Positions 1,057-52,325 of a DNA stretch of 64,000 nucleotides are shown here, piece by piece (position 1 is the stretch's first letter; each line of letters begins with the position of its first letter). Origin of the DNA: an uncultured Christensenellaceae bacterium (GTDB lineage: Bacteria > Bacillota > Clostridia > Christensenellales > UBA3700); contig CALWHE010000009.1 in assembly GCA_944380295.1 (NCBI GenBank), positions 2,213 through 66,212 on the forward strand, given 5' to 3'. The notes under the pieces were generated by a model. It did no database searches and was not told where the DNA came from. It was given only the letters and a program-made list of their open reading frames with translations. The translations under genes were made by a program, and so were the position numbers.

Positions 1057-1061
1057 GAGAT

Positions 1062-2336
1062 AAGCGAAAAACAAAAGGGATAGGGCGGATATGGTTTTAT
1101 GCCATATCTGCCCTTTCGTTTTTCGCTTGCTGAAAGACAACCCCGGCATTCGCAATCGACATATCTTTCCGATATACTTTTATTTAGGGCGCAGCGTCAC
1201 GCTGCCTCTGCAACTTTGCCGTGAGATCGATTGCTTGAGCCGCGGTTTTCTCTCTTTTTGCGGGCGGCGTAATCTCGTATCGCGCTTGGTCTTGCCGCAA
1301 AAATTCACTCTTTCCGCCCTCATTCGCTCCACAAGTTCCGCTCACTCGGAAAATGCGCACGGCGCATTTTAGAGGTGCGCTCGTCCAAAAGCGCGGTTTT
1401 GGACGGCGGGATATTTGATAAGCGAAAAACAACCCCGGCATTGAAGATAGGCGCCGAGTGAAAGTGCCGTGCGATAAAACATTTTAATATTCTGACAATA
1501 TCTGCGCACAGCACTTTGCGCCTACGTGTGAGGGGCAAACCCGACACGCTCCGCTGCGGTTTTCCCCTCGTTTTGCGGCGAGATATAAAAAGCGTGCAAA
1601 CGTTAGCCGCAAAACTTCACCCTTTTCCGTCGCCGCGGGAGCGGCGCGCAAGGCATTCGCCTTGCCCAAGGATACGCTTGGCAAAAGTGCGATTTTGCCG
1701 CGCTTTATTACACTTTATCATGTAAGCATTGCAAAGAGATGAGCTGAAAACACGAACAAGTTACTTCAAGGCACGATCGGGGGTGGAGCGCCCAGCGCTC
1801 CCGTCACGCTGCCCGCGCTTTATTACACTTTATCATGTAAGCATTGCAAGAGTTTAGCTGAAAACACGAACAAGTTACTTCAAGGCATATAATGGGTGCA
1901 GCGGCACGCTGCCCGCCACGCACGACGAGCGCGGAGCTGTATCGTCGTGCATTTCACGTGCCCTCTCGTCGCCCTGCGGATTGAGGGCACATTTCACGTT
2001 TTTGCCAAGGTGTTGGCAAAAACATTTCACTTTTGCGCAGCAGTATACGTTCGCTTATCGCTCACTTATATCTGCGCAAAAATTTCACGTCCGGAGCAAG
2101 GGCGCATACTTTCGCTTATCGCCCATTGCGCCCTTGCGCAGGACATAAAAGGGTGCGCGGGAGAGTGATGGATTTGCGTGCGGATTTGGACAACGGGGAC
2201 GCAGGTAATACTTGTTGTATTATCAAGTCCCCGTTGTTCAAAGGCGCGCGTAAAGACGCACTCTCATGCGTGCCCGGACAGCGCCTGTCCGGCAGAAAAA
2301 AAACAAGCCGCTTGCGCGACTTGTCTTTTTTGTTTG
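1062..2336. repeat. Mosaic hairpin-repeat block A (non-coding, between convergent genes)
   Basis: Long segments are collinear with 6293-6957 and 9448-9580. Includes an internal 115-bp tandem duplication and many stem-loops. Only low-complexity ORFs. Confidence 0.75.
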
Positions 2337-2356
2337 ATCGGTTGTGGATAATTATC

Positions 2357-3598
2357 TTATTGCCACGTGAAGTTGCTGTCTACCTTGATGGTGCCGAGGC
2401 TGACATATGCGGAACCGTCTGCGACCGCATTGATGATGCCGGCTATATCCAGCTGCTCGCCGTCGATCTCGACCCCGCCACCGGGAAGCATACTCTGGAT
2501 CACACCTATCAAGTCAGTGACCTGCGCCTTGTCAAGATTTATGCTGACGCCGGTGGTGGTCATATGGAGATCCTTGAACATGTTGTCTTCCACGGTGCCG
2601 GTAACACTCATCCTGCCGTCCGTCACCGCTTCTTTAAGCAGGTTGGGCAGCAGATCGCCAAACTGATCGGCGGAGAGGAATATGCTCAAGATCTTGCCGA
2701 TAGGCAGGGTGAAGTCTCCTATTTCAATTTCCGATGCGGGACCGACGAATTCTTGCAGCATAGCTTTGCCGTCAGCGGAGATGTTGTTCCACACATCCAT
2801 CAGGAAGTCGAGGTTATCCAAAGCGGAAACCGTGTTGGTGTATTGACCATCGGTCAAGCTCGCATTGGTGGGATCGCTGAAATCAAGCAAAGTCTGATTG
2901 AGCAGCAGATCGTCGATGATGGACACAACGTCGAGGGTATAATCTTCGTTGAATATGCCGCCTATGACCTTGCCGACGGTGCCTTCGGAAAGCAGTCCGT
3001 TGAGTTTGGTAACATCGTCGCTGACCTCTCTCTTCGTGCGGTTATTGTCAAAATAGATGGGCCAAGGATCTTCCGTGATGATCTTTTTCAAAGCGGGGAT
3101 GGCTTGCGTCAGACCTTCCACTTGCAAATTCCTCACGCCGATGTTCTTGGTCGTTTCGCCGCCGTAATTATAGAACGCCTGTCCGGTGAATTTGATCTTG
3201 GACATAGCAGACTGGTTGATCAACGCCTTTTCGCCATCGATAAATCCGCCGATAAGAGTGTTCAATGCCATATCGCTAAGTTCGATTTTGAAATCGGTGG
3301 GCTGAGCAACGATATCGATGGTCAGTGTGCCGTTTTCCCATTTGCGGTTCAGATCGACCTTGGCGCTGGCGGTGACGCTGATGTCTTCGTTGTCGCCATC
3401 TACGCCGAGAGCAATTTTTGCGTCCGTTATCGTCACGCTGGTCGTAGCCGTTTTACTATCCTTTTTCGCCCAGTTGGCTTCGCTTGCCTCTTGAGCATTA
3501 TCGGCCTTGACCTTATTGCAGCCCGCGAGAGCGACAACGGAAATCATGCACACAAGCAGAACGATGACCGCAAGTGTAATGCCTATCTTCTTTTTCAT
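2357..3598 (-). CDS. Lipoprotein of unknown function
   Basis: 413-aa ORF. AGGAGG lies upstream of the ATG. N-terminal signal peptide with lipobox LAGC. Confidence 0.75.
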   Translation of the reverse strand: MKKKIGITLAVIVLLVCMISVVALAGCNKVKADNAQEASEANWAKKDSKTATTSVTITDAKIALGVDGDNEDISVTASAKVDLNRKWENGTLTIDIVAQPTDFKIELSDMALNTLIGGFIDGEKALINQSAMSKIKFTGQAFYNYGGETTKNIGVRNLQVEGLTQAIPALKKIITEDPWPIYFDNNRTKREVSDDVTKLNGLLSEGTVGKVIGGIFNEDYTLDVVSIIDDLLLNQTLLDFSDPTNASLTDGQYTNTVSALDNLDFLMDVWNNISADGKAMLQEFVGPASEIEIGDFTLPIGKILSIFLSADQFGDLLPNLLKEAVTDGRMSVTGTVEDNMFKDLHMTTTGVSINLDKAQVTDLIGVIQSMLPGGGVEIDGEQLDIAGIINAVADGSAYVSLGTIKVDSNFTWQ

Positions 3599-3806
3599 AG
3601 TCTTCCTCCTGAAGATTTTTTATTTCATACGGATATTATACACCACCGGCGCAGGCGTGTCAACGATTTTGCAAATTTTTACCCCGCTAAGCAAAAGAGC
3701 CCGGGCAACGTCGCGCCCGAGCAATGCGGAGTTTTCACTCCCGTCAAGGCGGTTTTGCGGCGCGCAATAGCTGCTCTTAGGCAAAAATTGCGCGCCGGTG
3801 CGGTTT

Positions 3807-4013
3807 TTATTTGGAATCGGTCAGCCCCAGCATATAGTCGGTGCTGCGGTTGAAGAGTTTGGCAAGATCTATCAGCGTTTGGAAGTCCGGCTCTTTAAGT
3901 CCCCTCTCCCAGTTGCTCACAGACACCTGCGAAACGTTCATATATTTGGCTATGTAAGTTTGATTATATCCGTTCAGGATGCGTTCCTGGCGGAGCCTTT
4001 CCGCAAATTTCAT
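3807..4013 (-). CDS. XRE-family helix-turn-helix transcriptional regulator
   Basis: 68 aa. Typical HTH_3 pattern (QTYIAKYMNVSQVSVSNWERG). GGAGG RBS. Confidence 0.85.
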   Translation of the reverse strand: MKFAERLRQERILNGYNQTYIAKYMNVSQVSVSNWERGLKEPDFQTLIDLAKLFNRSTDYMLGLTDSK

Positions 4014-4040
4014 ATTTTCCTCCGATTATCGCAAACTCTT

Positions 4041-4646
4041 TTATTTTTCCACATGCTCGTCCAGATAAGTGGCGGTCATGTCCGCCATATGAAGCAGCAT
4101 TGCCAAGGGGTAACGGTAATAAGCGTCGCTCATGGAATAATCGCCCGCCTTCACCCTGTTGTCAAAGCCGCCCATATGCCAATTTATCGCCAGCGCTTCC
4201 CCGCGCGTGAGGCGCATATATCCGTTAATGATATAAACGGACTTTTCCCCGTGTCCGTAAGGCAGGCTGTCGCTTATCACATAATAAGGCACCTGCTGCC
4301 ACTCGCCGTTTTTTTTGACGTTGCGCTTTTCTTCGCGGTAAAAGTCCACCTTGCAAAGATCGTGGAGCAGTCCGCATATCGCCACGGTTTCTTCCGTTAT
4401 CGCGTCGGGCGCGATGTCGCCCGCCTCCACGTGCAGTTTTACCAGCTCTTGCAGTCTGCGGTAAACGTTGATGCTGTGCGCGCAAAGACCGCCCTCCACG
4501 TTACTGTGGAAGCGCGAACTTGCCGGCGCGGTGAAAAAGTCGGTGCCGCACAGATATTTGAGCAGCTCGCTTGCTCCTTCGCGCTTGATCTTTTGGTTGA
4601 ATATCTCCAAAAAAAGCTTTTTGTTTTCTTCCGTCCTGCTTTCCAT
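4041..4646 (-). CDS. HD-domain phosphohydrolase
   Basis: 201 aa. Has RFHS...H and LLHDLCK (the HD signature). Confidence 0.8.
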   Translation of the reverse strand: MESRTEENKKLFLEIFNQKIKREGASELLKYLCGTDFFTAPASSRFHSNVEGGLCAHSINVYRRLQELVKLHVEAGDIAPDAITEETVAICGLLHDLCKVDFYREEKRNVKKNGEWQQVPYYVISDSLPYGHGEKSVYIINGYMRLTRGEALAINWHMGGFDNRVKAGDYSMSDAYYRYPLAMLLHMADMTATYLDEHVEK

Positions 4647-4654
4647 ACAAGTAG

Positions 4655-4683
4655 ATTGTATATCAAGAAAAAAAATTTGTCAA
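4655..4683 (-). promoter_or_regulatory. Sigma-70-type promoter of the HD gene (apparently leaderless mRNA)
   Basis: TTGACA (4678-4683), 17-nt spacer, TACAAT (4655-4660). The ATG is only 8 nt downstream and there is no SD. Confidence 0.5.
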
Positions 4684-4849
4684 TACAATTTTTTTTGCTG
4701 TTTACACATATTAATAAGATTTTTATCAAAGCGAGGCGTTTTTTTGTCCGATATGCGCGCGATAAGCCGCCAGCGTTTTACTTTATCGCGCAAATGTGCT
4801 AAAATATTTTTATGTGACCGGCGCGCCGAGGTGCGCGCGGAGGTAGAAA

Positions 4850-6049
4850 ATGACTGCGGAATTTTATATCCTCGCCTTATCCGGCGACAAATTGCTTGAA
4901 GACTGCCTTGCCGGCGAACGCCGCGCGGCGGGCGAATTGATAAGTTTTGCCTCGCGTTACAACTTGCAGGGCGACATTTTCAAGGCGTATCTGGCATACC
5001 TGCTCATCTGCGAAGAAAACCCTTACGCCCTGCAATGCGAACGGGGCGAAGCGCCGCGCAGGAGCCTGCGCGAGGCGGCGCTCAAAGACGCGGAAAAACT
5101 GTTTGCGCTGTTCAACGATCCTTCCGTGTGCGCGCGCCTTTTACCCGAGCTTGCCTGCTGGAAGTGCGAAGCCGCGGCGGACAAATATTTTGCCGAGGCG
5201 GGAGAGGTGATCGCAAACTTTGTGAAAGCGCTCTCCAAAGCCAAAGACCCGGAAGAATTTTTGCGCGCCTGCCGCCGGCATTACATCGCGCGCGGCGCGG
5301 GAGCGTGCGCGCTCAACCACGCTTTCCGCTTGAAGGAAAATTCCGACGAAACAGAGCCCATCATTCTGGGCGAGATGAAGCGCATGTCCGATCTGGTGGG
5401 GCTGGAAGCGCAAAAGCGGGCGCTTTTGGACAACACGCGCGCCTTTGTGGAAGGCAAGGGCGGCGTGAACGTGCTGCTTTACGGCGACGGCGGCACGGGC
5501 AAGACCACCAGCGTGAAGGCGCTTTTATCCGAATTTGCGGGCAAGCGGCTGAAAATAATAGAGATCTACAAGCACCAATTCAAGTATCTGAACAACCTCA
5601 TCAGCCGCATAAAGCACCGCGGATACAAGTATATCCTCTTTTTGGACGATCTGTCTTTTGAAGACAGCGAGGTGGAATACAAATATCTCAAAACCATCAT
5701 CGAAGGCGGACTGGAACCGCGCCCGGACAACGTGCTTATCTATGCCACGTCCAACCGCCGCCACCTCATACGCGAAAGCTGGAAAGACCGCGAGGAGAGC
5801 GACGATATCCACGCGGGCGACACGGTGGAAGAAAAGCTCTCTTTGGTCAAGCGTTTCGGGCTTACCCTCTATTACCCTTCTCCCAACCAAAAAGAGTATC
5901 TCAACATCGTGCGCAGCCTTGCCGAGCGCGAAGGCATCACGCCGGACGCCGAATTGGAATCCGCCGCGCTGGTGTGGCAGAGGCGCGAAGGGGGGATGTC
6001 GGGGAGGACGGCGGAGCAGTTTTTGATAAGTGAAAAACGAAAAGGATAA
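4850..6049 (+). CDS. DUF815-type P-loop (AAA-like) ATPase
   Basis: 399 aa. Walker A GDGGTGKTT and Walker B ILFLDDLSF. GGAGG RBS. Confidence 0.8.
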   Translation: MTAEFYILALSGDKLLEDCLAGERRAAGELISFASRYNLQGDIFKAYLAYLLICEENPYALQCERGEAPRRSLREAALKDAEKLFALFNDPSVCARLLPELACWKCEAAADKYFAEAGEVIANFVKALSKAKDPEEFLRACRRHYIARGAGACALNHAFRLKENSDETEPIILGEMKRMSDLVGLEAQKRALLDNTRAFVEGKGGVNVLLYGDGGTGKTTSVKALLSEFAGKRLKIIEIYKHQFKYLNNLISRIKHRGYKYILFLDDLSFEDSEVEYKYLKTIIEGGLEPRPDNVLIYATSNRRHLIRESWKDREESDDIHAGDTVEEKLSLVKRFGLTLYYPSPNQKEYLNIVRSLAEREGITPDAELESAALVWQRREGGMSGRTAEQFLISEKRKG

Positions 6050-6135
6050 GGCTTTTCCCGTTACAAACGGGAACTGCCTTTCCGTCTTTCACTTCCCTAG
6101 GGGACACCCCGCCATTCAAAAATAAAACGAACAGA

Positions 6136-6175
6136 CGGTGATATGAGCGCAATATATCGCCGTTTTATTTTTTTG
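6136..6175 (+). terminator. Intrinsic terminator after the DUF815 gene
   Basis: Stem CGGTGATAT/ATATCGCCG followed by TTTTATTTTTTT. Confidence 0.6.
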
Positions 6176-6289
6176 AGGCGTAGTTTCCCCTCTTTTTGCG
6201 GAACGGAATAACGCTGTTGTGCGGAGAGATATGTATATTAAAGAATACGCTTTTGCAGGGGAATAAGACAGCGTGGTCACCACGCCACC

Positions 6290-6960
6290 TCTTCCGCCCT
6301 CATTCGCTCCGCGCGCTCCGCTTATTCGGAAAATGCGCACGGCGCATTTTAGAGGTGCGCTCGTCCAAAAGCGCGATTTTGGACGGCGGGATATTACACT
6401 TTGCTGTATAGCATTGCGAAGAGGTAAGCCGGAAAAACGAACAAGTTACTTCAAGGCACGATCAGGGGTGGAGCGCCCCGCGCTCCCCGCCACGCACGAC
6501 GAGCGCGGAGCTGTATCGTCGTGCATTTCACGTGCTCTTTCGTCGCGGAGCGGTTTAAGAGCACATTTCACGTTTTTGCCTTGTGAGGCAAAAACATTTC
6601 ACTTTTGCGCGGTTGGCATATCTCATATGTTTGTTTATGATGATAATTATGCCGAACAGACGTCTATAAGGGTGAAGCGCCGCAGGCAGCCTTTACATTT
6701 TGCCGTTTGATACAGTGCGGTTACTCAATACGTTTGTTACGGCAAAATATATCGCGTCCGGAGCCGCCAAACATTTTTATCGCTTTTCGCTCTTGTTTGG
6801 CGGCGCAGGACATATCGCGTCGGCGCAGCCGACATATCGCTTTTGCGCAGCAGATATAAGTTCGCTTGCCGCTCACTTATATCTGCGCAAAAATTTCACG
6901 TCCGGAGCGGCACGGCACACTTTCGCTTATCGCTCATTGCCGTGCCGCGCAGGACATCAC
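6290..6960. repeat. Mosaic hairpin-repeat block B
   Basis: Collinear with 1313-2146, plus an insertion shared with block C. Confidence 0.75.
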
Positions 6961-7341
6961 ACACACACTCACCGCCAAGCCCTCTATCTCTTCTCTCAGC
7001 ACGATATTTGCGGGAACGGTGTGTTTGACGTCTTTTGTGCTCACGCCTCTGCCCAGAGCCTTGCAAAACGCTTCCAGGTCAGTCCAGGCAAAGATGTCTT
7101 TGAGCGGCGCGGGCGGCTGTCTGGCGGGATCTTCCGCGTCCACGCCTATGCTGCCCTCCCCTTTGAGCACGGCAAGGAAGGTGATGCCGCGGCAGTCGGA
7201 GAGGGATATCTGAAAGCCTTGCGCGCGCGGCTTGCCGGAGCGCTCGTGAAAAAGCGGCGCTTTGAGGTGTTTTTGCACCATCTGCGCGGAAGTGACGTTG
7301 CGCTCGCAATAGAGCGTGAAGAGCGGATATTCCCTTTTCAT
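6934..7341 (-). CDS. 4'-phosphopantetheinyl-transferase-like protein (short, possibly 3'-altered)
   Basis: 135 aa. SGKP..FQISLSD, IGVDAE and W..LEAFCKALGRG resemble Sfp/EntD-type motifs. The start overlaps the malQ stop. The last codons lie inside a repeat module. Confidence 0.45.
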   Translation of the reverse strand: MKREYPLFTLYCERNVTSAQMVQKHLKAPLFHERSGKPRAQGFQISLSDCRGITFLAVLKGEGSIGVDAEDPARQPPAPLKDIFAWTDLEAFCKALGRGVSTKDVKHTVPANIVLREEIEGLAVSVCVMSCAARQ

Positions 7342-8846
7342 CAGCTCCTGTTTCTGCCGTAAAGGCTGTTTACCTCATTGAAAAAGGCATGGTCCACCCC
7401 GTCGAAGTTCTCGTAAGTGGCGCGGTAACGCCAGTTGCCTTCCGCCACGCCGGGCGTATTCATGCGGCAGTCCGCGCCGAAGCCGCACATGTCCTGGAAA
7501 GGCACCACGGCGAGCACGCAGCTGCTTTCCGCCAGCTTGCGGTAAAACGCGTGCGTGGACTTACAGCCGTAACCGCCGTGGCTCCAACCGAACGAATCGC
7601 AACGGATATAACGCAGCACATATTCCAAGATGTTGGCGGGCAAATTTTGCAGCCAACCCAAAGTGGTGTTATTATCGTGCGTGGCGGTGTAACCCACGCA
7701 ATAAGTGTCGAAGTTGTGCGGCAGATGGATACTGTCCCCGTCCTCGAAGCCGAACTGCATGACGCGCATGCCGGGCAAGCCGCTTTGCGCCAGCAATTTC
7801 CGCACGTCGTCGTCTATGATGCCCAGATCTTCCGCGATAAAGCGCGCCTCGGGCATGGCGGCGAACACCGTTTGCAAAAATTCCAAGCCCAAGCCCTTTT
7901 CCCACTTGCCTTCTTTGGCGGTTTGCGCGCCGGCGGGCACGCTCCAATAGCGGCTGAACGCGCGGAAGTGGTCTATGCGCAGCACGTCATACCAGTCCAT
8001 GGCGCGGCGCAGGCGCTGCAACCACCAGGCGTAACCGGTTTTTTTGAGGTGCTTGACGTTATAGAGCGGATTTCCCCACAGCTGCCCGTCCGCGCTGAAA
8101 TAATCGGGCGGCACGCCGGCAACGGCGGCGGGGTTGAGGTCTTTGTCCAGTAAAAACACGTCCGGGTGCGCCCACACGTCCGCGCTGTCACGGCTGACAT
8201 ACATGGGCATATCGCCGATGACGGAAATGCCGCGCCCGGAAAGCGCCGCGCGCACCTGTGCCCACTGCCTGTCGAACAAAAATTGTTCAAAGCAATAAAA
8301 AGCGTATTCTTCCCCCTGCCGCACCTTGTTCAGAGCGGCAGGCTCACGCAGGCGGTAAGGCTCTTCCCAGCGCCACCAGGGCAAGCCGTCCATCATGTCT
8401 TTGACCGCCATATAAACGGCGTAATCGTCCAGCCAATCGCGGTTTTTGCGGCAATACTCGTCTATCTCCGCCTGCGCATAGGCGCCGGAGGCAAAGGCTT
8501 TGCGCACCACGGCGCGCTTGGCGCCGCGGCAGAAAGCGTAATCAACGCTGAACGGCTCGCCGGGATATTCGCAGGCGCGCACGTCCGCTTCCGTGAGCGC
8601 GCCGTCCGCGCGCAGCTTTTCCGGGTCGATATAGAGATAATTCCCCGCAAAAGCCGAAGTGCCGGAATAAGGCGAATCGCCCAAGCCCACCGTGTTGAGC
8701 GGCAAGATCTGCCAATAATGAAAACCGCCGCGCAGCAAAAAATCGCTCAGCTCGTCCGTTTCCCGTCCGAAGCCGCCTATGCCGTAAGGCGAAGGCAGAG
8801 AAGAAACGTTGAGCAGCACGCCCGCGGATCTGTTGAATTTTTTCAT
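7341..8846 (-). CDS. malQ: 4-alpha-glucanotransferase (amylomaltase, GH77)
   Basis: 501 aa. N-terminus RSAGVLLNVSSLPSPYGIGGFG and overall GH77 pattern. Confidence 0.9.
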   Translation of the reverse strand: MKKFNRSAGVLLNVSSLPSPYGIGGFGRETDELSDFLLRGGFHYWQILPLNTVGLGDSPYSGTSAFAGNYLYIDPEKLRADGALTEADVRACEYPGEPFSVDYAFCRGAKRAVVRKAFASGAYAQAEIDEYCRKNRDWLDDYAVYMAVKDMMDGLPWWRWEEPYRLREPAALNKVRQGEEYAFYCFEQFLFDRQWAQVRAALSGRGISVIGDMPMYVSRDSADVWAHPDVFLLDKDLNPAAVAGVPPDYFSADGQLWGNPLYNVKHLKKTGYAWWLQRLRRAMDWYDVLRIDHFRAFSRYWSVPAGAQTAKEGKWEKGLGLEFLQTVFAAMPEARFIAEDLGIIDDDVRKLLAQSGLPGMRVMQFGFEDGDSIHLPHNFDTYCVGYTATHDNNTTLGWLQNLPANILEYVLRYIRCDSFGWSHGGYGCKSTHAFYRKLAESSCVLAVVPFQDMCGFGADCRMNTPGVAEGNWRYRATYENFDGVDHAFFNEVNSLYGRNRS

Positions 8847-8899
8847 AACTTCCCCTCTTTTGAGTTTTGTAAGGCTATCTATATTCTAACACGCGCGCG

Positions 8900-9800
8900 C
8901 GGAAAAAACAAGAGGGAATTTTTATGTCCTGCGCCGCCGAACAAAACAATAAGCGATACGATGTTCGGCGGCTCCGGACGCGATATATTTTGCCGTTGCA
9001 AACGCATAGATAAGCGCATGATATCGAACGGCAAAATGCGATATGTCGGCTGCGCCGACGCGATATGTCCTGCGCGGCACGGCAATGAGCATAAGCGAAA
9101 GGATGCCGTGCCGCTCCGGACGTGATATATTTTGCCGTGCCAAACATTTAGAATAAGCGTAAAAGCACAAAACGGCAAAATGCGGCGGTATCTTGCGGCA
9201 TTTTGCCACAAATCACATATTGTTGTTGCGAAGAAGCGCACTTGTTTGATTATCCGTCCGGCGATATAGTTTATCAAACAGCGCCGCAGGCAACCGCTGC
9301 ATTTTGCCGTTCGTGTTTTCGCTTGCCCTTTACAATTTTAAATAGCGCCGCAGGCAGCCTTTACATTTTGCCGTTCGCCACATCTTATGTGTTTGTTTAT
9401 GATGATAATTATGCCGGACAGACGTCTATAAGGGTGCACAGGAGGGCGATGGATTTGCGTGCGCTTTTGGACAACAGGGGCGAAGGTTGTCCTATTGCGG
9501 TATTATCAAGTCCCCGTTGTCCAAAAGCGTGCGTAAAGACGCGTCCTACTGCGTGCCCGCATAGCGCCTATCCGGCAGAGAAAATTCGCGTCCGGAGCGG
9601 CGGCGGATCCGATGGGGAAAATGTTATTCCGCCGCCGCGCAGGACATATCGCTTTTGTGCGGAAGTAATGTTCGCTTATCGCTCACATATATCCGCGCAA
9701 AAATATCGTGTCCGAAGCCGCCGAACATCGCTTGCGCTTACTTTATTTGTTCGGCGGCGCAGGGCATATCAGAAGTGCAGCCCCGCGCTGCCCGCGGCAA
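8900..9800. repeat. Mosaic hairpin-repeat block C (modules in both orientations)
   Basis: Modules are shared with blocks A, B and D. The 8924-9200 part is inverted relative to the others. Confidence 0.75.
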
Positions 9801-9805
9801 ACACA

Positions 9806-10153
9806 TCACTTGTGTGTTTTCACGGTTTTTATCGATGCTATCAACTTGCTGCGTATCGTTCCGCAGGCATTTTTGACTTCTTTTTGTTCTTCTTCCGTCA
9901 ACGCGCCTATTCTTGTCAATATTTCCAGCCAATATTCACTTTCGTAACACTCTTTTAACGCTATCTCCGCTTTATGCACGAAATCCTGATCGCTCTGCGC
10001 ATATTTTGCCTCGCTCATATTCGCCCCTATCGAAGAAACAGCTCTTAATAATTGATTGGTAAAAATCTCTCTGCCCTTGATTTTGTCACATATATTGACC
10101 ATTTGTATGGTCAGTTCCATTGCCAATTCTCTGATACTCTTATCGTTTTTCAT
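9806..10153 (-). CDS. Four-helix-bundle protein (23S rRNA intervening-sequence / Avd family)
   Basis: 115 aa. Has LLRAVSSIGANMSEA and the E..LKECYESEYWLEIL signature of this family. Confidence 0.8.
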   Translation of the reverse strand: MKNDKSIRELAMELTIQMVNICDKIKGREIFTNQLLRAVSSIGANMSEAKYAQSDQDFVHKAEIALKECYESEYWLEILTRIGALTEEEQKEVKNACGTIRSKLIASIKTVKTHK

Positions 10154-10159
10154 TTCTCA

Positions 10160-10566
10160 TTCTCGATGCTTCAAACACCTTACGGTTTATATAGCGCCAC
10201 AGGCAATCTTGCGATTTTATATAGCGCCGCAAGCAGCCGCCGCATTTCGTAGTTCGTGTTTTCGCTTGCCCTTTACAATTTTAAATAGCGCCGCAGGCAA
10301 CCGCGGCATTTTGCCGTTCGATATAGTGCAATTACTTAATACGTTTATTGCGGCAAAATATATCGCGTCCGGAGCGGCGGCGGATCCGATGGGGCAAATG
10401 TTATTCCGCCGCCGCGCAGGACATATCGCGTCGGCGCAGCCGACATATCGCTTTTGCGCGGAAGTTATGTTTGCTTGCCGCTCACTTATATCTGCGCAAA
10501 AATATCGCGTCCGGAGCAAGGGCGCATACTTTCGCTTATCGCTCATTGCGCCCTTGCGGAGGACAT
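10160..10566. repeat. Mosaic hairpin-repeat block D
   Basis: Collinear with 9279-9375 and with the hairpin modules of blocks A-C. Confidence 0.75.
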
Positions 10567-10590
10567 AAAACCCCCGCGAACGGGGGTTTT
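10567..10590. terminator. Bidirectional intrinsic terminator at the end of the WG-repeat operon
   Basis: AAAACCCCCG-CGAA-CGGGGGTTTT. Confidence 0.7.
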
Positions 10591-10592
10591 AC

Positions 10593-12056
10593 TTAAACCA
10601 GCATTATCAATTCATCGGAAAAATCGAAAAGTTGTTTGCCGTCTTCCAAGCGGTAGAGCGCGTCGTAATAATTGAATTCTTCGATTTCGACGATATAACC
10701 GTCCATCACCACGCCGATGACGCCGGGTGCGAACGCCTTGACCAGATTGCCGGAAAGATCGTAAACGCCGTTCTCGCCGGTTTTTGAGTTGCTCATGACA
10801 AGATAACCGCCGCTCACGCTTTTCACCGTGGCGCCGTCGTCAAGATCGGCAAGTCTGGTCTGCGCCGCGCTCACGCTGCCGTCCTCGGCAACGGAAGTAA
10901 GAGCATAAAACACGGTTTCCGCAGCGAAATAAAGCGCGTCCGTTTCATCGTCTGCACGCATGAATTTTCCGTCCACTTCTCCGTTGGCGTTGGTGGGCGG
11001 CGTGACGATCGCGCCGGTCACACCGTCAAAATAAGTGGTGACGGCTTGCGCGCCTTCCTGCCCGGGCACCGTGAACGAATATACGTCGGCAGTCTCGTCT
11101 TCCGTCGTAATGTCCGTGTTATCCGGCAGATCTTGGGCGATGACGGTCGCCTTGCCGCCATATACCGCCAGCAAAGAGATCGTGCTGCCGGTTTCCGTGA
11201 CGGTTTTCACCTTGAAGACATTTGCAAAGACATTGTCCAAATAATTGCCGGAAAAAACGAGCAACTCCGAACCTGTGCCGTTTGCGCTCTGCTGCGCGGA
11301 ATATTCTATGCCGGCGATATAATAAGTATTCGTCCCGGCGCCGTCCGCGCCTTCCGCGGAAACACGATAAAGCAGCAAGCCGGCAACGGATATGACCTTA
11401 TCGCATGCGGTCTTTTCCAACGCCACGGTTTTGGCTGCGGTGTTGACGGCAGCCACTTCATATCCTTCTTCCGTTTGAGTGTAAAAGGCGAGAAAATCGC
11501 TGTCGTTCGCATATGTGGATCCCTGATATTCACAGGGCACAAGTTCCGCGCCGGTGGCGGGGTCTATCGCGCCTTGCATAGTTTTGTTTGGCATAGGGCT
11601 GAAAGTGACCTTACCCACGCCGCCGCAAACGGAAGCTTCATCATAACGGGGAGCCACAGCCCACGCCGCCGTGTTCAGATCGAAAAATCCCCACAAGCCG
11701 GTGACCTTGTCGCAGGCGGCAATTATGGCGGTGCCTTGGCAAGCCTCACCGTCAAATTCCGAGAGCTTTATCTCCCCTGCCGGCTTGCCCTTTTTATCGA
11801 TGGCGAAATATTCCTCTCCGCTGTAAGTCACCAGCGCGTATTCGCCGTAAAAAGGCGAAGCCTCGGCATACTTGCAGTCTATGGCGATGTTGCCGTCTTC
11901 ATCGACGTAACCGAAATAACCGTCTTTATTGGCAACGGGCATGAGTCCGTTGGTAAAGAACGCGTCCGTGCGCGGATCGGCGCAGCCTGCCAACAAGCCG
12001 CACGCCAGCGCCGCCACCAGCACGACTGCAAGAACGATAAAAACTTTTTTCTTCAT
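10593..12056 (-). CDS. WG-repeat lipoprotein, paralog 1
   Basis: 487 aa. Lipobox LLAGC. Repeated DG.(W/F)GY.D..G...I...Y motifs. AGGAGG RBS. Confidence 0.8.
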   Translation of the reverse strand: MKKKVFIVLAVVLVAALACGLLAGCADPRTDAFFTNGLMPVANKDGYFGYVDEDGNIAIDCKYAEASPFYGEYALVTYSGEEYFAIDKKGKPAGEIKLSEFDGEACQGTAIIAACDKVTGLWGFFDLNTAAWAVAPRYDEASVCGGVGKVTFSPMPNKTMQGAIDPATGAELVPCEYQGSTYANDSDFLAFYTQTEEGYEVAAVNTAAKTVALEKTACDKVISVAGLLLYRVSAEGADGAGTNTYYIAGIEYSAQQSANGTGSELLVFSGNYLDNVFANVFKVKTVTETGSTISLLAVYGGKATVIAQDLPDNTDITTEDETADVYSFTVPGQEGAQAVTTYFDGVTGAIVTPPTNANGEVDGKFMRADDETDALYFAAETVFYALTSVAEDGSVSAAQTRLADLDDGATVKSVSGGYLVMSNSKTGENGVYDLSGNLVKAFAPGVIGVVMDGYIVEIEEFNYYDALYRLEDGKQLFDFSDELIMLV

Positions 12057-12068
12057 CTTGACTCCTCC

Positions 12069-13520
12069 TTACACGCCCATGTCCGCAAATCTGAATCCGG
12101 TCAGCTGCGAGCCGTCCGCCTTGATCACGCCCCAGGCGTTGCCCAGTTTGGCGGCGTAATAACCGCCGTCCAGCGCGCGCAGGTCGGAATAAATGCACTC
12201 CACCAGCATGTTGCCTTGTTTATCCGCAATGCCTACCCTGCCGCCTGCGGAGCCGACCAGCACGTTGCCGCCGACAAAGCCGCCGAAATCCTTATTGCCG
12301 AAAACGCTCGGGTCAAAGGCATAAGCCGTGCCGTCTTCCGCGACCGCCGCCAGGCGCACGCTTATTGTGCCGTCTTCCGCCTCTTGGCGATAAGTATAAC
12401 CGTAATAAACCTCTTCCGTCTGCGCGTCCTCATAGATCCTGCCGCCGGCAAAAGTGCTCTGCGCGTTCAGGGTGAAGGAAAACTTTAAGCCTTGCACAAA
12501 AACGGTGTAAGCGCCGTTTTCCCCTTCAAGGATAAAGCCGCCGCTCGTGCTGTCCAAAACGGGCTTTTGTGTGCCGGAATAAAGCTGCGTGCCGTTTGCG
12601 GCAAAGAGCAGATATTCTCTGCCGCCTTCCGCATTGGTCACGGTGAGCAGCAGCATGTCCTCTTCCGCTTCTGCGGATACCACGTCCGCTTGCGGGAAGG
12701 TGGTCACCACCTTTTCTCCCACAAAAGTATAATTGGTCACGGTGCCGCCGCTGCCGTCGGCAGCGTCTGAGCTTATGCACCACCAGCCGTAGCCCGAACC
12801 GGTCAGATCATTGCCGGATACGGAGGTGAAGCCGAAGTTTTCTTGGTCATAGATCTGATAGACGTAAGCGTTTAACTCATCGGTCGCGTCCGCTGCTTCC
12901 GTCCAAACATAGGCATAGCCCTGCGAGCCGCTGCCGCTTTCCACGGCGCCGGCGCGCACGCCCACGTCGGAAAGGTCTGCCGCCTTCCAGACATAAGTGA
13001 AGTTGTCTGCCTCGGCAAAGACAGCGCCCGCTTCTTTATCCCAGCTCATGGAAGAATAGGCAAAGTCCTTTGCCATGGCGGCGGCGCCGATATCGTAAAT
13101 GCCATATAAAACGTCACCTTCGGAAAAGGCGGACGAACCTGCTTTTGCCACAATGGCATAATTGCCGCCCTCTATCAGCTGCGCATAGGCATAAGGTCCT
13201 GCAATGCGCGAACCGCCGGAGTTGATCAGATAGAACACGTCGGGAACGTCATACACGTCGGGAACGTTATAGCTTGTCTTAGCCGTTGCCACCACGGCGG
13301 TGCCGTTGTCAAAGGGCGACGCCCACGTATAATCGAAGGGTATCACCTCTTCTCCCGCGCTGTTCACATAGCCCCAAAACCCGTATTCGTCCTGCACGGG
13401 GATGCCTGCCTGGGCAAACACCCCCTCCTTTTCCGTTTTGTCGCAGGCGGCGAGCACGCCGGCAAGCGCCAGAACGAGCGCCAGGACGATTATTACGGGA
13501 ACAAATTTTTTCTTGCTCAT
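12069..13520 (-). CDS. WG-repeat lipoprotein, paralog 2
   Basis: 483 aa. Lipobox LAAC. Has YGFWGYVNSAGEEVIPFDY and a C-terminal WG unit. AGGAGG RBS. Confidence 0.8.
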   Translation of the reverse strand: MSKKKFVPVIIVLALVLALAGVLAACDKTEKEGVFAQAGIPVQDEYGFWGYVNSAGEEVIPFDYTWASPFDNGTAVVATAKTSYNVPDVYDVPDVFYLINSGGSRIAGPYAYAQLIEGGNYAIVAKAGSSAFSEGDVLYGIYDIGAAAMAKDFAYSSMSWDKEAGAVFAEADNFTYVWKAADLSDVGVRAGAVESGSGSQGYAYVWTEAADATDELNAYVYQIYDQENFGFTSVSGNDLTGSGYGWWCISSDAADGSGGTVTNYTFVGEKVVTTFPQADVVSAEAEEDMLLLTVTNAEGGREYLLFAANGTQLYSGTQKPVLDSTSGGFILEGENGAYTVFVQGLKFSFTLNAQSTFAGGRIYEDAQTEEVYYGYTYRQEAEDGTISVRLAAVAEDGTAYAFDPSVFGNKDFGGFVGGNVLVGSAGGRVGIADKQGNMLVECIYSDLRALDGGYYAAKLGNAWGVIKADGSQLTGFRFADMGV

Positions 13521-13559
13521 AATACCTCCTCGGGCAGCGCAAAGGCTGCCCCGCCGCCT

Positions 13560-14969
13560 TTATTCGGCAAAGCTAACGTCAGTTATCTCTTTGTCAAAGC
13601 CGAACAACCGCGTGCCGTCGTTTTTGTAGAGTGCCACGTAGCCCTCCGCGTTTGTCACGGCAAAGTATGCGCCGTCAACGGACATGCCGGAACCGGAGAA
13701 CGCTTCGCCCGCGCCCGTTTCAAAGACCCTCGCAGTGCCGTTGTATATTCTTGTCACGCCCGTTTCCGTTGCTCCGACAAAGACGTTTGCAGCAAGCACG
13801 CCGACCTCTTCTTCATCTTCCGCGCCGGTAAAGACGGCGGTGGAATTGCCCATGGCGAACACCTCTTTGCCTATGGCGTAATAAAGGCTGTCGTCATCCA
13901 AACGCATAAAGGAGATGGCGGGAGTTTCCCCATTGACGGTAAAGTCATTGGGAACGTTTTCCAGCGCGCTGCCGCTCTTCATATCCACATAAGTATAAGA
14001 AGGCGCGGTGGCGTCTGCCGCCGTTCTGTCGATCTGCAGCACGCCGGTGTCTTTGTAGTAAACCGGAGCTTTGGTCAAGCCGTTGAACAACGCAGTGCCG
14101 TCGGCTTTGAACACCGAATAAGTAGTGGTGACGCCCTCCGCAGAGGTGGCGGTATCTTCGGTCACATAAACGGACGTTGTGCCCTCTATGAGCTCGGATA
14201 CGGACGTATCTTTATCCCAGTTCATACCGGGGACCACCTGATTGACTTTTTCCGCGGCGGTATCCGTGGCGGGAGTGGTATATTCATAATAAGCAAGTCC
14301 GCCTTTCGTTGTGCCTGCATCTGCTATCTTCACGTCTTCGGAGATGACCGTGCCGTCTGTGGCAAACACGTCTGCCACCCGCTCGCCCTGCACTGTTTTT
14401 TCCATGATCACGGCGTTTTCGCCAATGGCACAATCGGTATATTCCACCGGGCAGATCTCCGCGCCGGTGGCGTCGAACAAGCCGTAATTGCCACTGCCGG
14501 AGCCGATGGTGACGAGCACCAGTCCGCCTTCCAGGAAATCTATCATGTCATAAGCCGCCCTGATCACCCATTCGCCGCTCTCCGTGCTCAAAACGCCTGC
14601 AAGTCCGGTATATTTTTCCCGGGCGGCGAGGAGCGTGCGGTCTTCGTTGGCGGCAACGGACACCGAGGCATCAACGGACACCGAGGCAAGCTCTATGCCC
14701 GTATCGTTGCCCTTGACGTCTATCAAAAAGCTCCTGCTGCCCATTTGCACAGCCGCGTATTCGCCGTAAAAAGGCGAAACGGAGTCATATTTGCATTCGA
14801 TGGCTATATCGCCGTTTTCATCGGCAAAGCCCCACAAGCCGTCCTTTTGCACGGCGATCATGCCCTGGGAAAACGCCGAGTCCGTGGTCTTGGCGCAGCC
14901 CGCCAACAGCGTGAGCGCCAAAATAACGGAAAGGGCGAGGGCTATTACTATCACAACTTTCTTTTTCAT
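13560..14969 (-). CDS. WG-repeat lipoprotein, paralog 3
   Basis: 469 aa. Lipobox LLAGC. Has DGLWGFADENGDIAIECKY. Confidence 0.8.
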   Translation of the reverse strand: MKKKVVIVIALALSVILALTLLAGCAKTTDSAFSQGMIAVQKDGLWGFADENGDIAIECKYDSVSPFYGEYAAVQMGSRSFLIDVKGNDTGIELASVSVDASVSVAANEDRTLLAAREKYTGLAGVLSTESGEWVIRAAYDMIDFLEGGLVLVTIGSGSGNYGLFDATGAEICPVEYTDCAIGENAVIMEKTVQGERVADVFATDGTVISEDVKIADAGTTKGGLAYYEYTTPATDTAAEKVNQVVPGMNWDKDTSVSELIEGTTSVYVTEDTATSAEGVTTTYSVFKADGTALFNGLTKAPVYYKDTGVLQIDRTAADATAPSYTYVDMKSGSALENVPNDFTVNGETPAISFMRLDDDSLYYAIGKEVFAMGNSTAVFTGAEDEEEVGVLAANVFVGATETGVTRIYNGTARVFETGAGEAFSGSGMSVDGAYFAVTNAEGYVALYKNDGTRLFGFDKEITDVSFAE

Positions 14970-14985
14970 GTCTTTCCTCTCCTTA

Positions 14986-16314
14986 TTATCCGATGGATTT
15001 ATCGTTCGATCTCAAAATGAGATTGCCTTCCGTGCCATACCATTCGCACACACCGCCGCGATAACCTACAAAGCCGTCCGAATAGGCGGTCATTTCGTCA
15101 AAACAGAACTCCGTGAGCAGCGTGCCGTTTTTGGCGCAGGCGGCGAGTTTGCCGGCTTTATTCTGCACCACGAACATGCCCTCTTCCGCACCCGTGACGC
15201 CGGTCACCTCGCGGCTGAGCTTGACCGATTCGCCGGTCAAAAGATCCGTCAGCGTGTTGGTGGCGGTGTTGAACATATAGTCGCGGAAAGTGCCGCTCAC
15301 AATGGAGCAGTAGTCCAGCTCCGCTTCGGGAACGCTCGCCACCACTTCGCCGTTGCCGTAAACGTCCCAGTTGTCGCCGTTTTTATAAGCGATCACATCG
15401 TCTATATGCGTTGCCGTTGCCGGGGTCAGATCGCCCGATTTGATGTCCAGGAAATATCCCCGTATGCTGTCCGCGGATATGCTGCCCGCGGATATGAAAT
15501 AAGTGTTTTTATCCACCAGCTCTTCCGCCGCAGGATATAATCCGTCCGGCAGGCGACGCAGCTCTTCCAGGTTTTCATCCACAATGACGTAAATGCCTGT
15601 ATTTTCGTCTATTATCAGATATCTGTCAAAGCCGATATATATCAGGTCGACATTGTCATATCGGGTGCATGCCACCTTACCGCTCTCCATATTGACAAAG
15701 TCCACTCCGCCGTCTTCACGGACCATGAGGATATAATCGCCCTGAGCATCTGATACTTCATCATATATGAAGTCGGTAAGCATTTTGCCTTTGCCGTCTG
15801 CCAGAGCAATTTTATCGCCGCGCGTGAGAAGGAAGGAAGCGTATACAGGCTCGATCTCGTCGTATTCGGCGGGAATGACTGCCTCTCCCTTATTGTTCCA
15901 CACGCCCCACTTGTCGTCTTTTTTGCCTATTATCTTATCCGCCACGATGTAACATTTTCCGGTCAATCCGGTGAGCAGCGCTTTGCCGCTCTTGTCTATC
16001 ACGCTCACATTTCTGTTGCCCGCATCAACCGCCGCCATGCCGCCGGCAAACTTTCCCGCATCGGCATATTTTGCCTCTATCACCACTTTCCCGCTTGTGG
16101 CGTCAAGATAGCCGAACAACTCTGTGACCTTATCTTGATAAAGGACCAGTCCGTCAGGTCCGAGAGCGGTGGCGCTTTCGCCGTATTTTTCGTAATATTC
16201 CCTTTGCGCCGAGGACATCGAATCGAACGGAGTGGGTCCGCACGCCGCCAGCGCCAGAGATAAAACGATCACCGACAATATCGCCGCCGCGATCAATAAT
16301 TTACGCTTTGCCAT
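14986..16314 (-). CDS. WG-repeat lipoprotein, paralog 4
   Basis: 442 aa. Lipobox LAAC. Several WG units (DDKWGVWNNKGEAVIPAEY). AAGGAGGG RBS. Confidence 0.8.
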   Translation of the reverse strand: MAKRKLLIAAAILSVIVLSLALAACGPTPFDSMSSAQREYYEKYGESATALGPDGLVLYQDKVTELFGYLDATSGKVVIEAKYADAGKFAGGMAAVDAGNRNVSVIDKSGKALLTGLTGKCYIVADKIIGKKDDKWGVWNNKGEAVIPAEYDEIEPVYASFLLTRGDKIALADGKGKMLTDFIYDEVSDAQGDYILMVREDGGVDFVNMESGKVACTRYDNVDLIYIGFDRYLIIDENTGIYVIVDENLEELRRLPDGLYPAAEELVDKNTYFISAGSISADSIRGYFLDIKSGDLTPATATHIDDVIAYKNGDNWDVYGNGEVVASVPEAELDYCSIVSGTFRDYMFNTATNTLTDLLTGESVKLSREVTGVTGAEEGMFVVQNKAGKLAACAKNGTLLTEFCFDEMTAYSDGFVGYRGGVCEWYGTEGNLILRSNDKSIG

Positions 16315-52221: not shown

Positions 52222-52234
52222 ATTCCCTCCGTAA

Positions 52235-52302
52235 TAAAAAAAGCCGCCCTTCTTTCAAAGAGCGGCTTTCGCCTTTTCTTTTATGCGCCTGCGCCATTGC
52301 AG
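52235..52302 (-). promoter_or_regulatory. asnB leader with a CUGC-AAUGGC-GCAG hairpin and an intrinsic terminator just upstream of the RBS
   Basis: Terminator AGCCGCUCUU-UGAAAG-AAGGGCGGCU plus U7 at 52235-52267. Hexaloop hairpin at 52289-52302. Confidence 0.5.
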
Positions 52303-52325
52303 TTACATTTTCCTTTAATGCAGAA

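What the first reader, a model, noticed from the sequence alone, without database searches (positions are those of the whole stretch)
2088..10566. Nine copies of a long hairpin with conserved flanks and compensatory inner-stem changes
Plus-strand copies lie at 2088-2146, 6755-6813, 6898-6957, 9589-9647, 9707-9767, 10366-10423 and 10508-10566. Minus-strand copies lie at 8924-8980 and 9065-9122. All read CGTCCGGAGC-[arm]-loop-[arm']-GCGCAGGACAT. The flanks pair (GTCC/GGAC and GC/GC) around two conserved purine-purine mismatches, and the loop is usually CTTTCGCTTATCGC-like. The inner arms differ between copies yet stay complementary: AAGGGCGCA/TGCGCCCTT, GGCACGGCA/TGCCGTGCC, CGCCGAACA/TGTTCGGCG, CGCCAAA/TTTGGCG and GGCGGCGGA/TCCGCCGCC. 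Covariation of this kind implies selection on a folded RNA or single-stranded DNA structure, or on a structure-specific binding protein.
Basis: seen in the sequence. Interest (0 to 1): 0.72.

Follow-up and report, generated by a model that had tools for sequence, protein, structure and literature searches.

The report
Hairpin module of a mosaic repeat
The nine hairpins are real and their pairing is kept, but they are one building block of a modular intergenic repeat in an uncultured gut Christensenellaceae bacterium, built like the function-unknown 'Gut-1' RNA motif.

Summary
Observation confirmed. There are exactly nine copies of a 56-nt hairpin ('module D'), none expected by chance, all within window 2088-10566.

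D is not a stand-alone element. It is always the outermost unit of arrays of 2-5 independent stem-loops (modules A-F). The stem-loops are separated by an unpaired heptamer, ATATCGC or ATTTCAC. Rfam Gut-1 (RF01706) has the same architecture of hairpins joined by GUGAAAU. It matches the arrays only below threshold (20.6-33.6 bits; cut-off 50) and does not cover D.

The arrays behave as mosaic repeat DNA:
- They fill spacers between terminators and promoters.
- They are gained or lost in module-sized blocks between strains.
- They are absent from syntenic loci of related species.
- One copy overwrites the last codons of an ORF.

Only five arm types exist among 33 distinct copies, and whole inner hairpins swap at orthologous sites. 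Pairing is nevertheless maintained. 98.5% of cells pair, there are stepwise G-C, G·T, A-T pathways, and an orthologous array survives in a sister species. Stem mismatches are about 12 G·T against 0-2 A·C, always on the ATATCGC strand, so the fold matters on one strand (RNA or ssDNA).

Best reading: a REP/BIME-like, Gut-1-type modular hairpin repeat. Its mobilising or binding protein is unknown.

The parts
2088..2146 (+). Module D, arm type AAGGGCGCA (D1). Last hairpin of type-I array A-B-C-D.
6755..6813 (+). Module D, arm type CGCCAAACA (D4). Internal copy in array F-D-E-C-D.
6899..6957 (+). Module D, arm type GGCACGGCA (D2). Terminal copy. Its 3' half encodes, on the minus strand, the last 7 codons and stop of the 135-aa ORF 6934-7341.
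8924..8980 (-). Module D, arm type CGCCGAACA (D3). Outer end of the minus-strand array, just upstream of the GH77 promoter-like region.
9065..9122 (-). Module D, arm type GGCACGGCA (D2). Inner copy of the minus-strand array D2-E-F-D3.
9589..9647 (+). Module D, arm type GGCGGCGGA (D5, different loop). Part of a 120-nt block (D5 + heptamer + C + heptamer) absent in strains L121-L123.
9709..9767 (+). Module D variant (GTCCGAAGC...GCGCAGGGC), arm CGCCGAACA. Terminal copy.
10366..10424 (+). Module D, arm GGCGGCGGA (D5). Internal copy in array F-D-E-C-D.
10508..10566 (+). Module D variant (GCGGAGGAC 3' flank), arm AAGGGCGCA (D1). Terminal copy abutting the terminator of the WG-repeat gene.
1951..2088 (+). 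Type-I array upstream of D1. Four ATTTCAC heptamers separate hairpins A (1958-1990), B (1998-2023) and C (2031-2081). Sub-threshold Gut-1 hit on the opposite strand.
6525..6612 (+). Second type-I array, A (6532-6564), B (6572-6595) and a truncated C, with ATTTCAC linkers. Gut-1 hit of 25.7 bits on the opposite strand.
6698..6899 (+). Type-II array context: hairpin F (about 6698-6748), heptamers ATATCGC at 6749, 6812 and 6834 and ATTTCAC at 6893, E (6819-6833), C (6841-6892).
8980..9128 (-). Minus-strand array internals: heptamers, F (8987-9037), E (9045-9059).
9646..9709 (+). Heptamer, hairpin C (9653-9702), heptamer, lying between D5 and D3'.
10308..10508 (+). F (about 10308-10359), heptamers at 10360, 10423, 10445 and 10502, E (10430-10444), C (10452-10501). 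The whole stretch folds as five separate hairpins with unpaired heptamers.
9360..9436 (+). Repeated central segment (also at 6598-6674) carrying a promoter-like TCGCCA/TTGGCA-17-TATGAT that points towards the plus-strand arrays.

Best explanation
The nine hairpins are copies of one module ('D') of a lineage-restricted, multi-copy, modular intergenic repeat. The host is an uncultured Christensenellaceae bacterium related to Candidatus Caccalectryoclostridium.

Anatomy. Each array is a string of 2-5 independent stem-loops (types A-F). They are separated by an unpaired heptamer, ATATCGC or ATTTCAC. D is always the last, outermost hairpin. Arrays point outwards from a repeated central segment, or sit at the 3' end of an element of about 0.9 kb that starts at the upstream gene's stop codon.

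How it behaves. It is a REP/BIME/NIME-type mosaic element. It occupies terminator-promoter spacers. It is gained, lost and reshuffled in module-sized blocks. It expands in one lineage.

How the hairpins are kept. They stay foldable on one strand, the one reading ATATCGC. I infer that this strand is exposed as a transcript, or less likely as ssDNA. There the stems would present the conserved unpaired TATCGC / CGCTTATC motifs and the conserved G.A/A.G internal loop of D to a structure-specific protein.

Shown: repetition, modularity, strain polymorphism, absence from relatives, cross-species retention with compensatory change, and strand asymmetry of mismatches.
Inferred: transcription, the binding or mobilising protein, and the mechanism of spread.
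For: Modularity and linkers
- Every module is bounded by AT[AT]TC[AG]C.
- The array 10300-10575 folds into five separate hairpins with unpaired heptamers.

Known architecture
- Rfam Gut-1 aligns hairpin-GUGAAAU-hairpin to the antisense of every type-I array.
- The published Gut-1 alignment shows GUGAUAU/GCGAUAU linkers followed by an inverted AUAUCAC half (PMC2864571).

Repeat-DNA behaviour
- Between strains there is an exact 120-nt indel of D5 + heptamer + C + heptamer, and inner hairpins are swapped at orthologous sites.
- Species with 81-83% identical GH77 have no arrays in 21 kb of synteny.
- The sister species L161/L164 is empty at two of the three window sites: 0 bp against 885 bp, and 168 bp against 1747 bp.
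- D supplies the C-terminal codons of a 135-aa ORF, and these differ by arm type.
- Further copies lie in the secF-recJ and ruvC-ruvA spacers, downstream of an rRNA operon, and in a phage-like region.

Structure constraint
- 98.5% of cells pair and 0 of 500 shuffles reach this.
- Type-I arrays across two species pair at 97.2%, with 9 pairs changed on both sides.

Strand asymmetry
- About 12 independent G.T/T.G mismatches occur on the sense strand. A.C occurs only at the internal-loop position. This holds for arrays of both genomic orientations.

Orientation
- All seven type-I elements are co-oriented with the upstream gene.
- Promoter-like sites in the central segment face outward.
Against: - No transposase, RAYT, integrase or other candidate partner was found in the window or near arrays in about 250 kb of related loci (and the gene tables).
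- No expression data exist. The promoter-like sites are no more frequent than in shuffles.
- Arrays mostly lie beyond terminators, so read-through transcription is not assured.
- The G.T excess could also come from strand-biased C-to-T deamination rather than selection.
- Only five arm types exist, so independent covariation events are few.
- I sampled only about 175 kb of the two species, not whole genomes.
Confidence: 0.55

Rival explanations
1. The arrays are genes for structured non-coding RNAs of the Gut-1 type. A transcript would display many hairpins and repeated unpaired UAUCGC / GCUUAUC motifs, for example as a decoy or scaffold for an RNA-binding protein, as CsrB is for CsrA. Repetition in the genome would then be gene-family expansion, not selfish spread.
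For: - Weinberg et al. rated Gut-1 a likely RNA with 18 covarying positions.
- G.U-only mismatches occur on one strand, in arrays of both orientations.
- Loop and linker motifs are conserved.
- Outward-facing promoter-like sites lie in a conserved segment.
- An orthologous array is retained between species.
Against: - Module-sized indels and hairpin swaps occur between strains.
- Arrays are absent from close relatives.
- One copy overwrites an ORF's C-terminus.
- No terminator follows D.
- Copy order is mosaic rather than a fixed gene structure.
- The sense strand inferred here is the opposite of the strand Rfam models.
Confidence: 0.2
2. D is a folded single-strand DNA recombination or transposition site. 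It would be recognised by a trans-acting HUH/Y1 (RAYT or IS200-type) or tyrosine recombinase. The conserved mismatched outer stem would be the protein-recognition part and the heptamer the cleavage or joining site, as in attC or REP.
For: - The outer stem is conserved with fixed mismatches, and the inner stem varies, as in attC sites.
- D is always at the outer ends of composites, in inverted orientation.
- Indels fall exactly at heptamer boundaries.
- Outer junctions abut T-runs: TTTTAT|GTCC...GGAC|ATAAAA.
- The strand asymmetry fits an active strand.
Against: - No such enzyme gene is in the window or in sampled loci.
- There are no attC core sites (GTTRRRY) and no REP GTAG.
- The 120-nt indel is equally explained by recombination between the repeated D 5' flanks.
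- Heptamers on the two sides of a module are not always identical, for example ATATCGC-C-ATTTCAC, which argues against simple target-site duplication.
Confidence: 0.15
3. These are neutral palindromic junk DNA. Arm complementarity would be maintained mechanically by intrastrand template switching and gene conversion, with no selected function.
For: - Two copies have the 5' flank converted to a perfect complement, GTCCTGC(A/G)C.
- There are only a few discrete arm types.
- Distribution is lineage-specific.
Against: - Template switching should erase the two conserved purine-purine mismatches, yet most of the 33 distinct copies keep them.
- The G.T against A.C asymmetry tied to array orientation is not expected.
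- Heptamers and loops are more conserved than stems.
Confidence: 0.07
4. The hairpins are intrinsic terminators or 3'-end mRNA stabilisers for the neighbouring genes.
For: - Arrays lie downstream of genes.
- Type-I elements are co-oriented with the upstream gene.
Against: - D is followed by ATAAAA or ATATCGC, not a U-run.
- The terminator scan picks up only module B and native terminators.
- Arrays usually start after an existing terminator.
Confidence: 0.03

Closest known systems
Gut-1 RNA motif (Rfam RF01706; Weinberg et al. 2010, PMC2864571)
   Same: - A series of short hairpins of variable sequence joined by a conserved heptamer, GUGAAAU/GUGAUAU/GCGAUAU, which is the reverse complement of ATTTCAC/ATATCAC/ATATCGC.
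- An inverted second half with AUAUCAC linkers.
- Found downstream of genes and terminators.
- Known only from uncultured gut bacteria.
- Function unknown.
   Different: - The Rfam model scores only 20.6-33.6 bits, against a gathering score of 50.
- It covers hairpins A-B-C, not D.
- Gut-1 hairpins are 4-7 bp, whereas D is a 56-nt hairpin with a conserved mismatched outer stem.
- The strand favoured by G.T evidence here is the opposite of the modelled strand.
- These arrays are embedded in larger mosaic repeats of 0.8-0.9 kb.
REP / BIME elements of Enterobacteria and Pseudomonas (RAYT-associated)
   Same: - Extragenic imperfect palindromes in many copies.
- Combined with short linker motifs into mosaics.
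- Strain-variable and lineage-specific.
- A stem with conserved mismatches.
   Different: - No GTAG foot.
- Hairpins within an array are in direct, not alternating, orientation.
- No RAYT gene found.
- Several unrelated hairpin families share one linker.
Neisseria intergenic mosaic elements (NIMEs) and pneumococcal BOX elements
   Same: Modular intergenic repeats assembled from a small vocabulary of units in variable number and order, able to fold.
   Different: No sequence similarity. No dRS3-type 20-bp inverted repeats and no boxA/B/C modules. The host is Christensenellaceae.
Integron attC sites
   Same: An imperfect hairpin of about 57 nt or more. Its outer stem and mismatches are conserved while the inner stem and loop vary. 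It would act as a folded single strand. Arrays differ between strains.
   Different: No RYYYAAC/GTTRRRY cores. No intI or attI. Most 'cassettes' are just other hairpins, not ORFs. Copies are scattered through housekeeping spacers.

Membership tests
Gut-1 RNA (RF01706) | Score at or above Rfam's gathering threshold (50 bits) | tested here: not met
   Best hits are 25.7 and 20.6 bits in the window and 33.6, 33.6 and 27.3 bits in L158-L160. No hit appears at gathering threshold.
Gut-1 RNA (RF01706) | Consecutive hairpins separated by the conserved heptamer GUGAAAU/GUGAUAU | tested here: met
   ATTTCAC/ATATCAC/ATATCGC linkers lie between all modules. The cmscan alignment shows heptamer-to-heptamer register. 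The published seed shows the same variants.
Gut-1 RNA (RF01706) | The element under study (hairpin D) is part of the family consensus | tested here: not met
   Gut-1 hits span modules A-C only (6520-6628 and 1986-2114). No Rfam hit overlaps a whole D copy.
REP/BIME | Extragenic, multi-copy imperfect palindromes combined in mosaics | tested here: met
REP/BIME | Conserved GTAG tetranucleotide at the 5' foot of the palindrome | tested here: not met
   The foot is GTCC, preceded by TCGC/TCAC.
REP/BIME | Cognate RAYT (Y1 transposase) gene in the genome, typically flanked by REPs | not testable with these tools
   None appears among window ORFs or in gene tables of about 250 kb of loci. The whole genome is not available.
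Integron attC | R''/R' core sites RYYYAAC ... GTTRRRY | tested here: not met
   The flanks are GTCCGGAGC ... GCGCAGGAC.
Integron attC | Adjacent intI integrase and ORF cassettes in one orientation | tested here: not met
   No integrase is in the window. Copies are dispersed in housekeeping spacers.
CRISPR array | Identical direct repeats of 23-55 nt with unique spacers of similar length, and cas genes | tested here: not met
   The only constant unit is 7 nt. The 'spacers' are recurrent hairpin families of 15-56 nt. No cas genes were found.
Intrinsic terminator | GC-rich hairpin followed directly by a U-run | tested here: not met
   D is followed by ATAAAA, ATCACA or ATATCGC. The scans do not call D on its sense strand.
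IS200/IS605-derived PATE or other MITE | Defined ends with target-site signature and empty/filled sites differing by the whole element | tested here: inconclusive
   Filled and empty sites were seen against the sister species. The flanks are too diverged to define a target duplication. Outer junctions are often TTTTAT|...|ATAAAA.

The most novel reading that the evidence does not exclude
The heptamer-delimited hairpins may be units of a previously undescribed system. Individual stem-loops would be added, removed or exchanged at the heptamer on a folded single strand. That would make it a hairpin-cassette recombination system analogous to, but unrelated to, integron attC or REP/RAYT. Alternatively, the arrays may be transcribed as multivalent decoy RNAs for an unknown Christensenellaceae RNA-binding protein. 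Either would give the orphan Gut-1 motif a mechanism.
Probability: 0.15. Interest if true: 0.75.

Novelty: new variant of a known kind. Interest (0 to 1): 0.45.

Why it matters
Gut-1 has sat in Rfam since 2010 as a gut-only RNA motif with no host and no function. This work does three things:
- It ties Gut-1's architecture to a named lineage (Christensenellaceae, near Ca. Caccalectryoclostridium).
- It shows the hairpins are modules of strain-variable mosaic repeat DNA, not a fixed gene.
- It gives a strand and a set of conserved unpaired motifs (TATCGC, CGCTTATC, and the G.A/A.G internal loop) that can be tested for a binding or processing protein.

It is also a caution. Striking 'covariation' among repeat copies can rest on a handful of subfamilies that recombine.

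Tried and rejected
None has complementary arms.
2. The metagenome-contig scan with a tighter pattern gave 16 hits, all chance.
3. Searches of viral contigs, plasmids and phages found no D, E or array sequence.
4. 'Zipper' idea: antisense heptamers of the left half pair with sense heptamers of the right half. Rejected, because the halves of one composite use different heptamer types (ATATCGC against ATTTCAC in L158), so there is no co-variation.
5. Nested-insertion idea: inner hairpins are independent units inserted into an outer palindrome. The arm 9-mers occur as hairpins only inside D flanks, so it is unsupported.
6. Simple 7-bp target-site duplication. The heptamers flanking one module can differ.
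7. Link to the adjacent four-helix-bundle (23S rRNA IVP) gene. Other arrays have no such gene nearby.
8. CRISPR, attC, terminator and k-turn readings failed their defining features (see membership tests).
9. Literature searches for Gut-1 follow-ups or Christensenellales repeats found nothing beyond Weinberg 2010.

Full report
**1. Observation**

The pattern CGTCCGGAGC-N-GCGCAGGACAT occurs seven times exactly, with none expected by chance. Two further copies have one-base flank variants. A covariance model built from 29 distinct copies (A1/R1) finds exactly nine copies in the 64-kb window. All lie between 2088 and 10566.

Each copy folds into the same structure. There are 4 bp of GTCC/GGAC, then a 3x3 internal loop closed by G.A and A.G with a central G-C, then an 11-bp stem and a loop of 18-20 nt. 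Free energies are -27 to -36 kcal/mol, with z-scores of -3.7 to -5.3.

**2. Context**

The hairpin, which I call module D, is not free-standing. Splitting the four non-coding regions (1700-2350, 6400-6960, 8890-9800, 10150-10590) at the heptamer A[TA][AT]TC[AG][CT] resolves them into strings of hairpins. The modules are:
- A: GTGCCCTC...GAGGGCAC
- B: GTTTTTGCC...GGCAAAAAC
- C: TTTTGCGCRG...CYGCGCAAAA
- D
- E: GTCGGCGCAGCCGAC
- F: ATTTTGCCG...CGGCAAAAT

The recurrent orders are A-B-C-D with ATTTCAC linkers ('type I') and F-D-E-(C or F)-D with ATATCGC linkers ('type II'). D is always the last hairpin. The stretch 10300-10575 folds into five independent hairpins with the heptamers unpaired. Modules C and D share the loop core TTCGCTTATCGCTCA, which itself contains the linker-like TATCGC.

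**3. Closest known thing**

At gathering thresholds Rfam finds only two tRNAs. With relaxed thresholds the Gut-1 model (RF01706) hits the antisense of the type-I arrays that keep A, B and C:
- 25.7 and 20.6 bits in the window.
- 33.6, 33.6 and 27.3 bits in other loci of the species.

The alignment shows why. Gut-1 is hairpin-GUGAAAU-hairpin-GUGAAAU-hairpin-GUGAAAU, and GUGAAAU is the reverse complement of ATTTCAC. The published seed alignment contains GUGAUAU and GCGAUAU variants and an inverted second half with AUAUCAC linkers. It was reported as 'human gut only', not cis-regulatory, with no function proposed (PMC2864571). The window's arrays therefore share Gut-1's architecture. They fail its score threshold, and D is outside the model.

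**4. Host and distribution**

The window is chromosomal. It carries atpA/D, pyrG, asnB and trpAB. Exact-protein look-ups find it only in metagenome assemblies. GH77 homologues are labelled Clostridia or Christensenellales.

I used spurious ORFs that gene callers had predicted across the arrays as protein queries. This recovered more loci of the same species:
- L158/L159, in the secF-recJ spacer.
- L160, in a phage-like region.

It also recovered loci of a sister species:
- L161/L164, which are syntenic with the window.
- L162.
- L163, downstream of an rRNA operon.
- L165, in the ruvC-ruvA spacer.

One record is named Candidatus Caccalectryoclostridium excrementigallinarum, in the Christensenellaceae.

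D is absent from several places:
- It is absent from 150 kb of more distant relatives, including 21 kb syntenic with the window.
- A tighter-pattern scan of JGI metagenome contigs gave only chance matches.
- It is absent from viral contigs, plasmids and phages.

My one genome-contig scan was too unspecific and is uninformative.

**5. Behaviour as DNA**

- Between strains, the plus array at 9583 differs by exactly D5 + heptamer + C + heptamer, 120 nt.
- At orthologous positions the inner hairpin differs while the flanks are identical. Next to GH77 it is CGCCGAACA in the window and GGCACGGCA in L121-L123. Next to the 135-aa ORF it is GGCACGGCA, CGCCGAACA or AAGGGCGCA.
- The sister species keeps the array B-C-D1 plus a following element of about 150 nt at the mannosidase spacer, orthologous to window 1951-2301. 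It has 0 bp where the window has 885 bp, at the DUF815 / 135-aa junction. It has 168 bp where the window has 1747 bp, in the GH77-WG spacer, which in the window includes a four-helix-bundle gene.
- The terminal D at 6899-6957 supplies the last codons of the 135-aa ORF. These read MSCAARQ*, MSSAAEQMK* or MSCARAQ* according to arm type, against the native LRPEGRL*.
- Composites sit between an upstream terminator and a downstream promoter. Their outer junctions are often TTTTAT|GTCC...GGAC|ATAAAA.

No transposase or recombinase was found in the window or next to arrays (and the gene tables).

**6. Is the pairing selected?**

Among 33 distinct D sequences there are only five arm types. Most double changes in the formal count therefore separate subfamilies. 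That count gives 98.5% of cells paired, 10 of 16 pairs changed on both sides, 0 of 500 shuffles reaching this, and slid controls of 27-51%.

There are, however, stepwise pathways within lineages:
- AAGGGCGCA/TGCGCCCTT (G-C), then .../TGTGCCCTT (G.T), then AAGGGCA.A/TGTGCCCTT (A-T), across strains and species.
- CGCCGAACA and CGCCAAACA with the same loop.
- Flank position 6/71 going G-C, G.G, C-G.
- Module A: GTGCCCTC/GAGGGCAC, GTGCTCTT/AAGAGCAC and GCGCTCTT/AAGAGCGC.
- Module C: CAG/CTG and CGG/CCG.

Type-I arrays from eight loci of two species pair at 97.2%, with nine pairs changed on both sides.

Single mismatches are almost all G.T or T.G on the strand that reads ATATCGC/ATTTCAC. There are 8 positions in D, 2 in C and 2 in A. 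A.C occurs only at the internal-loop position of D. This holds for arrays in both genomic orientations. It argues for a fold on that strand as RNA or ssDNA, or for transcription-linked deamination of that strand. Either way the arrays have a functional polarity, and it is opposite to the strand Rfam models.

Two copies have the 5' flank rewritten to GTCCTGC(A/G)C, a perfect complement of the 3' flank. Palindrome correction by template switching would produce exactly this rewriting. Yet the two purine-purine mismatches persist in most copies, so they are probably kept for a reason.

**7. Orientation**

All seven type-I elements start at or near the stop codon of the upstream gene. They open with a terminator-like hairpin that has a conserved outer stem and a variable inner stem, and they run in the same direction as that gene. 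In composites, the minus and plus arrays diverge from a repeated central segment. That segment carries promoter-like sites facing outward. Such sites are not enriched over shuffles.

**8. Verdict**

D is the terminal hairpin module of a REP/BIME/NIME-like, Gut-1-type mosaic repeat. The repeat has expanded in one Christensenellaceae lineage. Its hairpins are structurally constrained on one strand.

The 'nine copies with compensatory changes' are largely five recombining subfamilies of one module.

The partner protein and the mode of spread are not identified. The rivals are a pure ncRNA gene family, an attC- or REP-like ssDNA site, neutral palindromes and terminators. They are ranked in the report sections.

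I rate this a new variant of a known kind, of moderate interest.

Noticed in passing
window 2146-2301 and 9427-9584; also L158 3003-3396, L161 417-611, L165 about 10430-10780: A repeated element of about 155 nt follows or precedes D. It has a 16-bp stem (TTTGGACAACGGGGAC / GTCCCCGTTGTTCAAA) that changes compensatorily between strains (GGACAACAGGGGC/GTCCCCGTTGTCC against GGACGGCGGGGGC/GCCCCCGCCGTCC in L121). Partial tandem copies lie upstream of a SCIFF peptide gene in L158. There is no Rfam match.
   Followed up: partly
window 1060-1125 and 6033-6095; L164 6855-6950; L165 9794-9880: A terminator-like hairpin sits at the start of the type-I element. Its outer stem is conserved (AAGCGAAAAACAAAAAGG / CCTTTTTGTTTTTCGCTT) and its inner GC stem is locus-specific. 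This is the same 'conserved outside, variable inside' design as D. It overlaps the stop codon of the upstream gene.
   Followed up: partly
window 9806-10153 (-): This gene encodes a 115-aa four-helix-bundle protein (PF05635 23S_rRNA_IVP, TIGR02436; PDB 2RLD, E 5e-20). It lies inside the 1.7-kb array-flanked insertion that is missing from the sister species and from more distant relatives.
   Followed up: partly
window 6934-7341 (-): The C-terminus of this 135-aa ORF of unknown function is encoded by the D hairpin and varies with the arm type present in each strain.
   Followed up: yes
window 1698-1809 / 1813-1921, and 6366-6495: A unit of about 113 bp is repeated in tandem upstream of the type-I array, with one more copy at the second array. 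Different tandem units occupy the same position in L158 and L165.
   Followed up: no
window 10593-17789 (-): Five tandem paralogous genes encode WG-repeat (PF14903) proteins of 442-498 aa with lipoprotein-like N-termini. The same cluster occurs in relatives.
   Followed up: no
window 52000-54100: A low-GC patch (40% against about 56%) lies next to tRNA-Ser (54014-54104). It has a 73-nt direct repeat (52461-52533 / 52650-52722) and small ORFs, including one encoding an SdpI-family protein. No integrase was found.
   Followed up: partly
window 38199-39254 (-): A Fic/DOC-domain gene lies in a local GC dip (49%).
   Followed up: no
window 26677-28410 (-): The F1 ATPase alpha subunit is 577 aa, with an N-terminal extension that gives a weak OSCP (delta-subunit) match. 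This suggests a delta-alpha fusion.
   Followed up: no
L165 18486-20675: In the sister species, an rve-family integrase gene and a REP_ORF2-G2P (rolling-circle initiator) gene lie 8-10 kb from an array. No link to the arrays was established.
   Followed up: no
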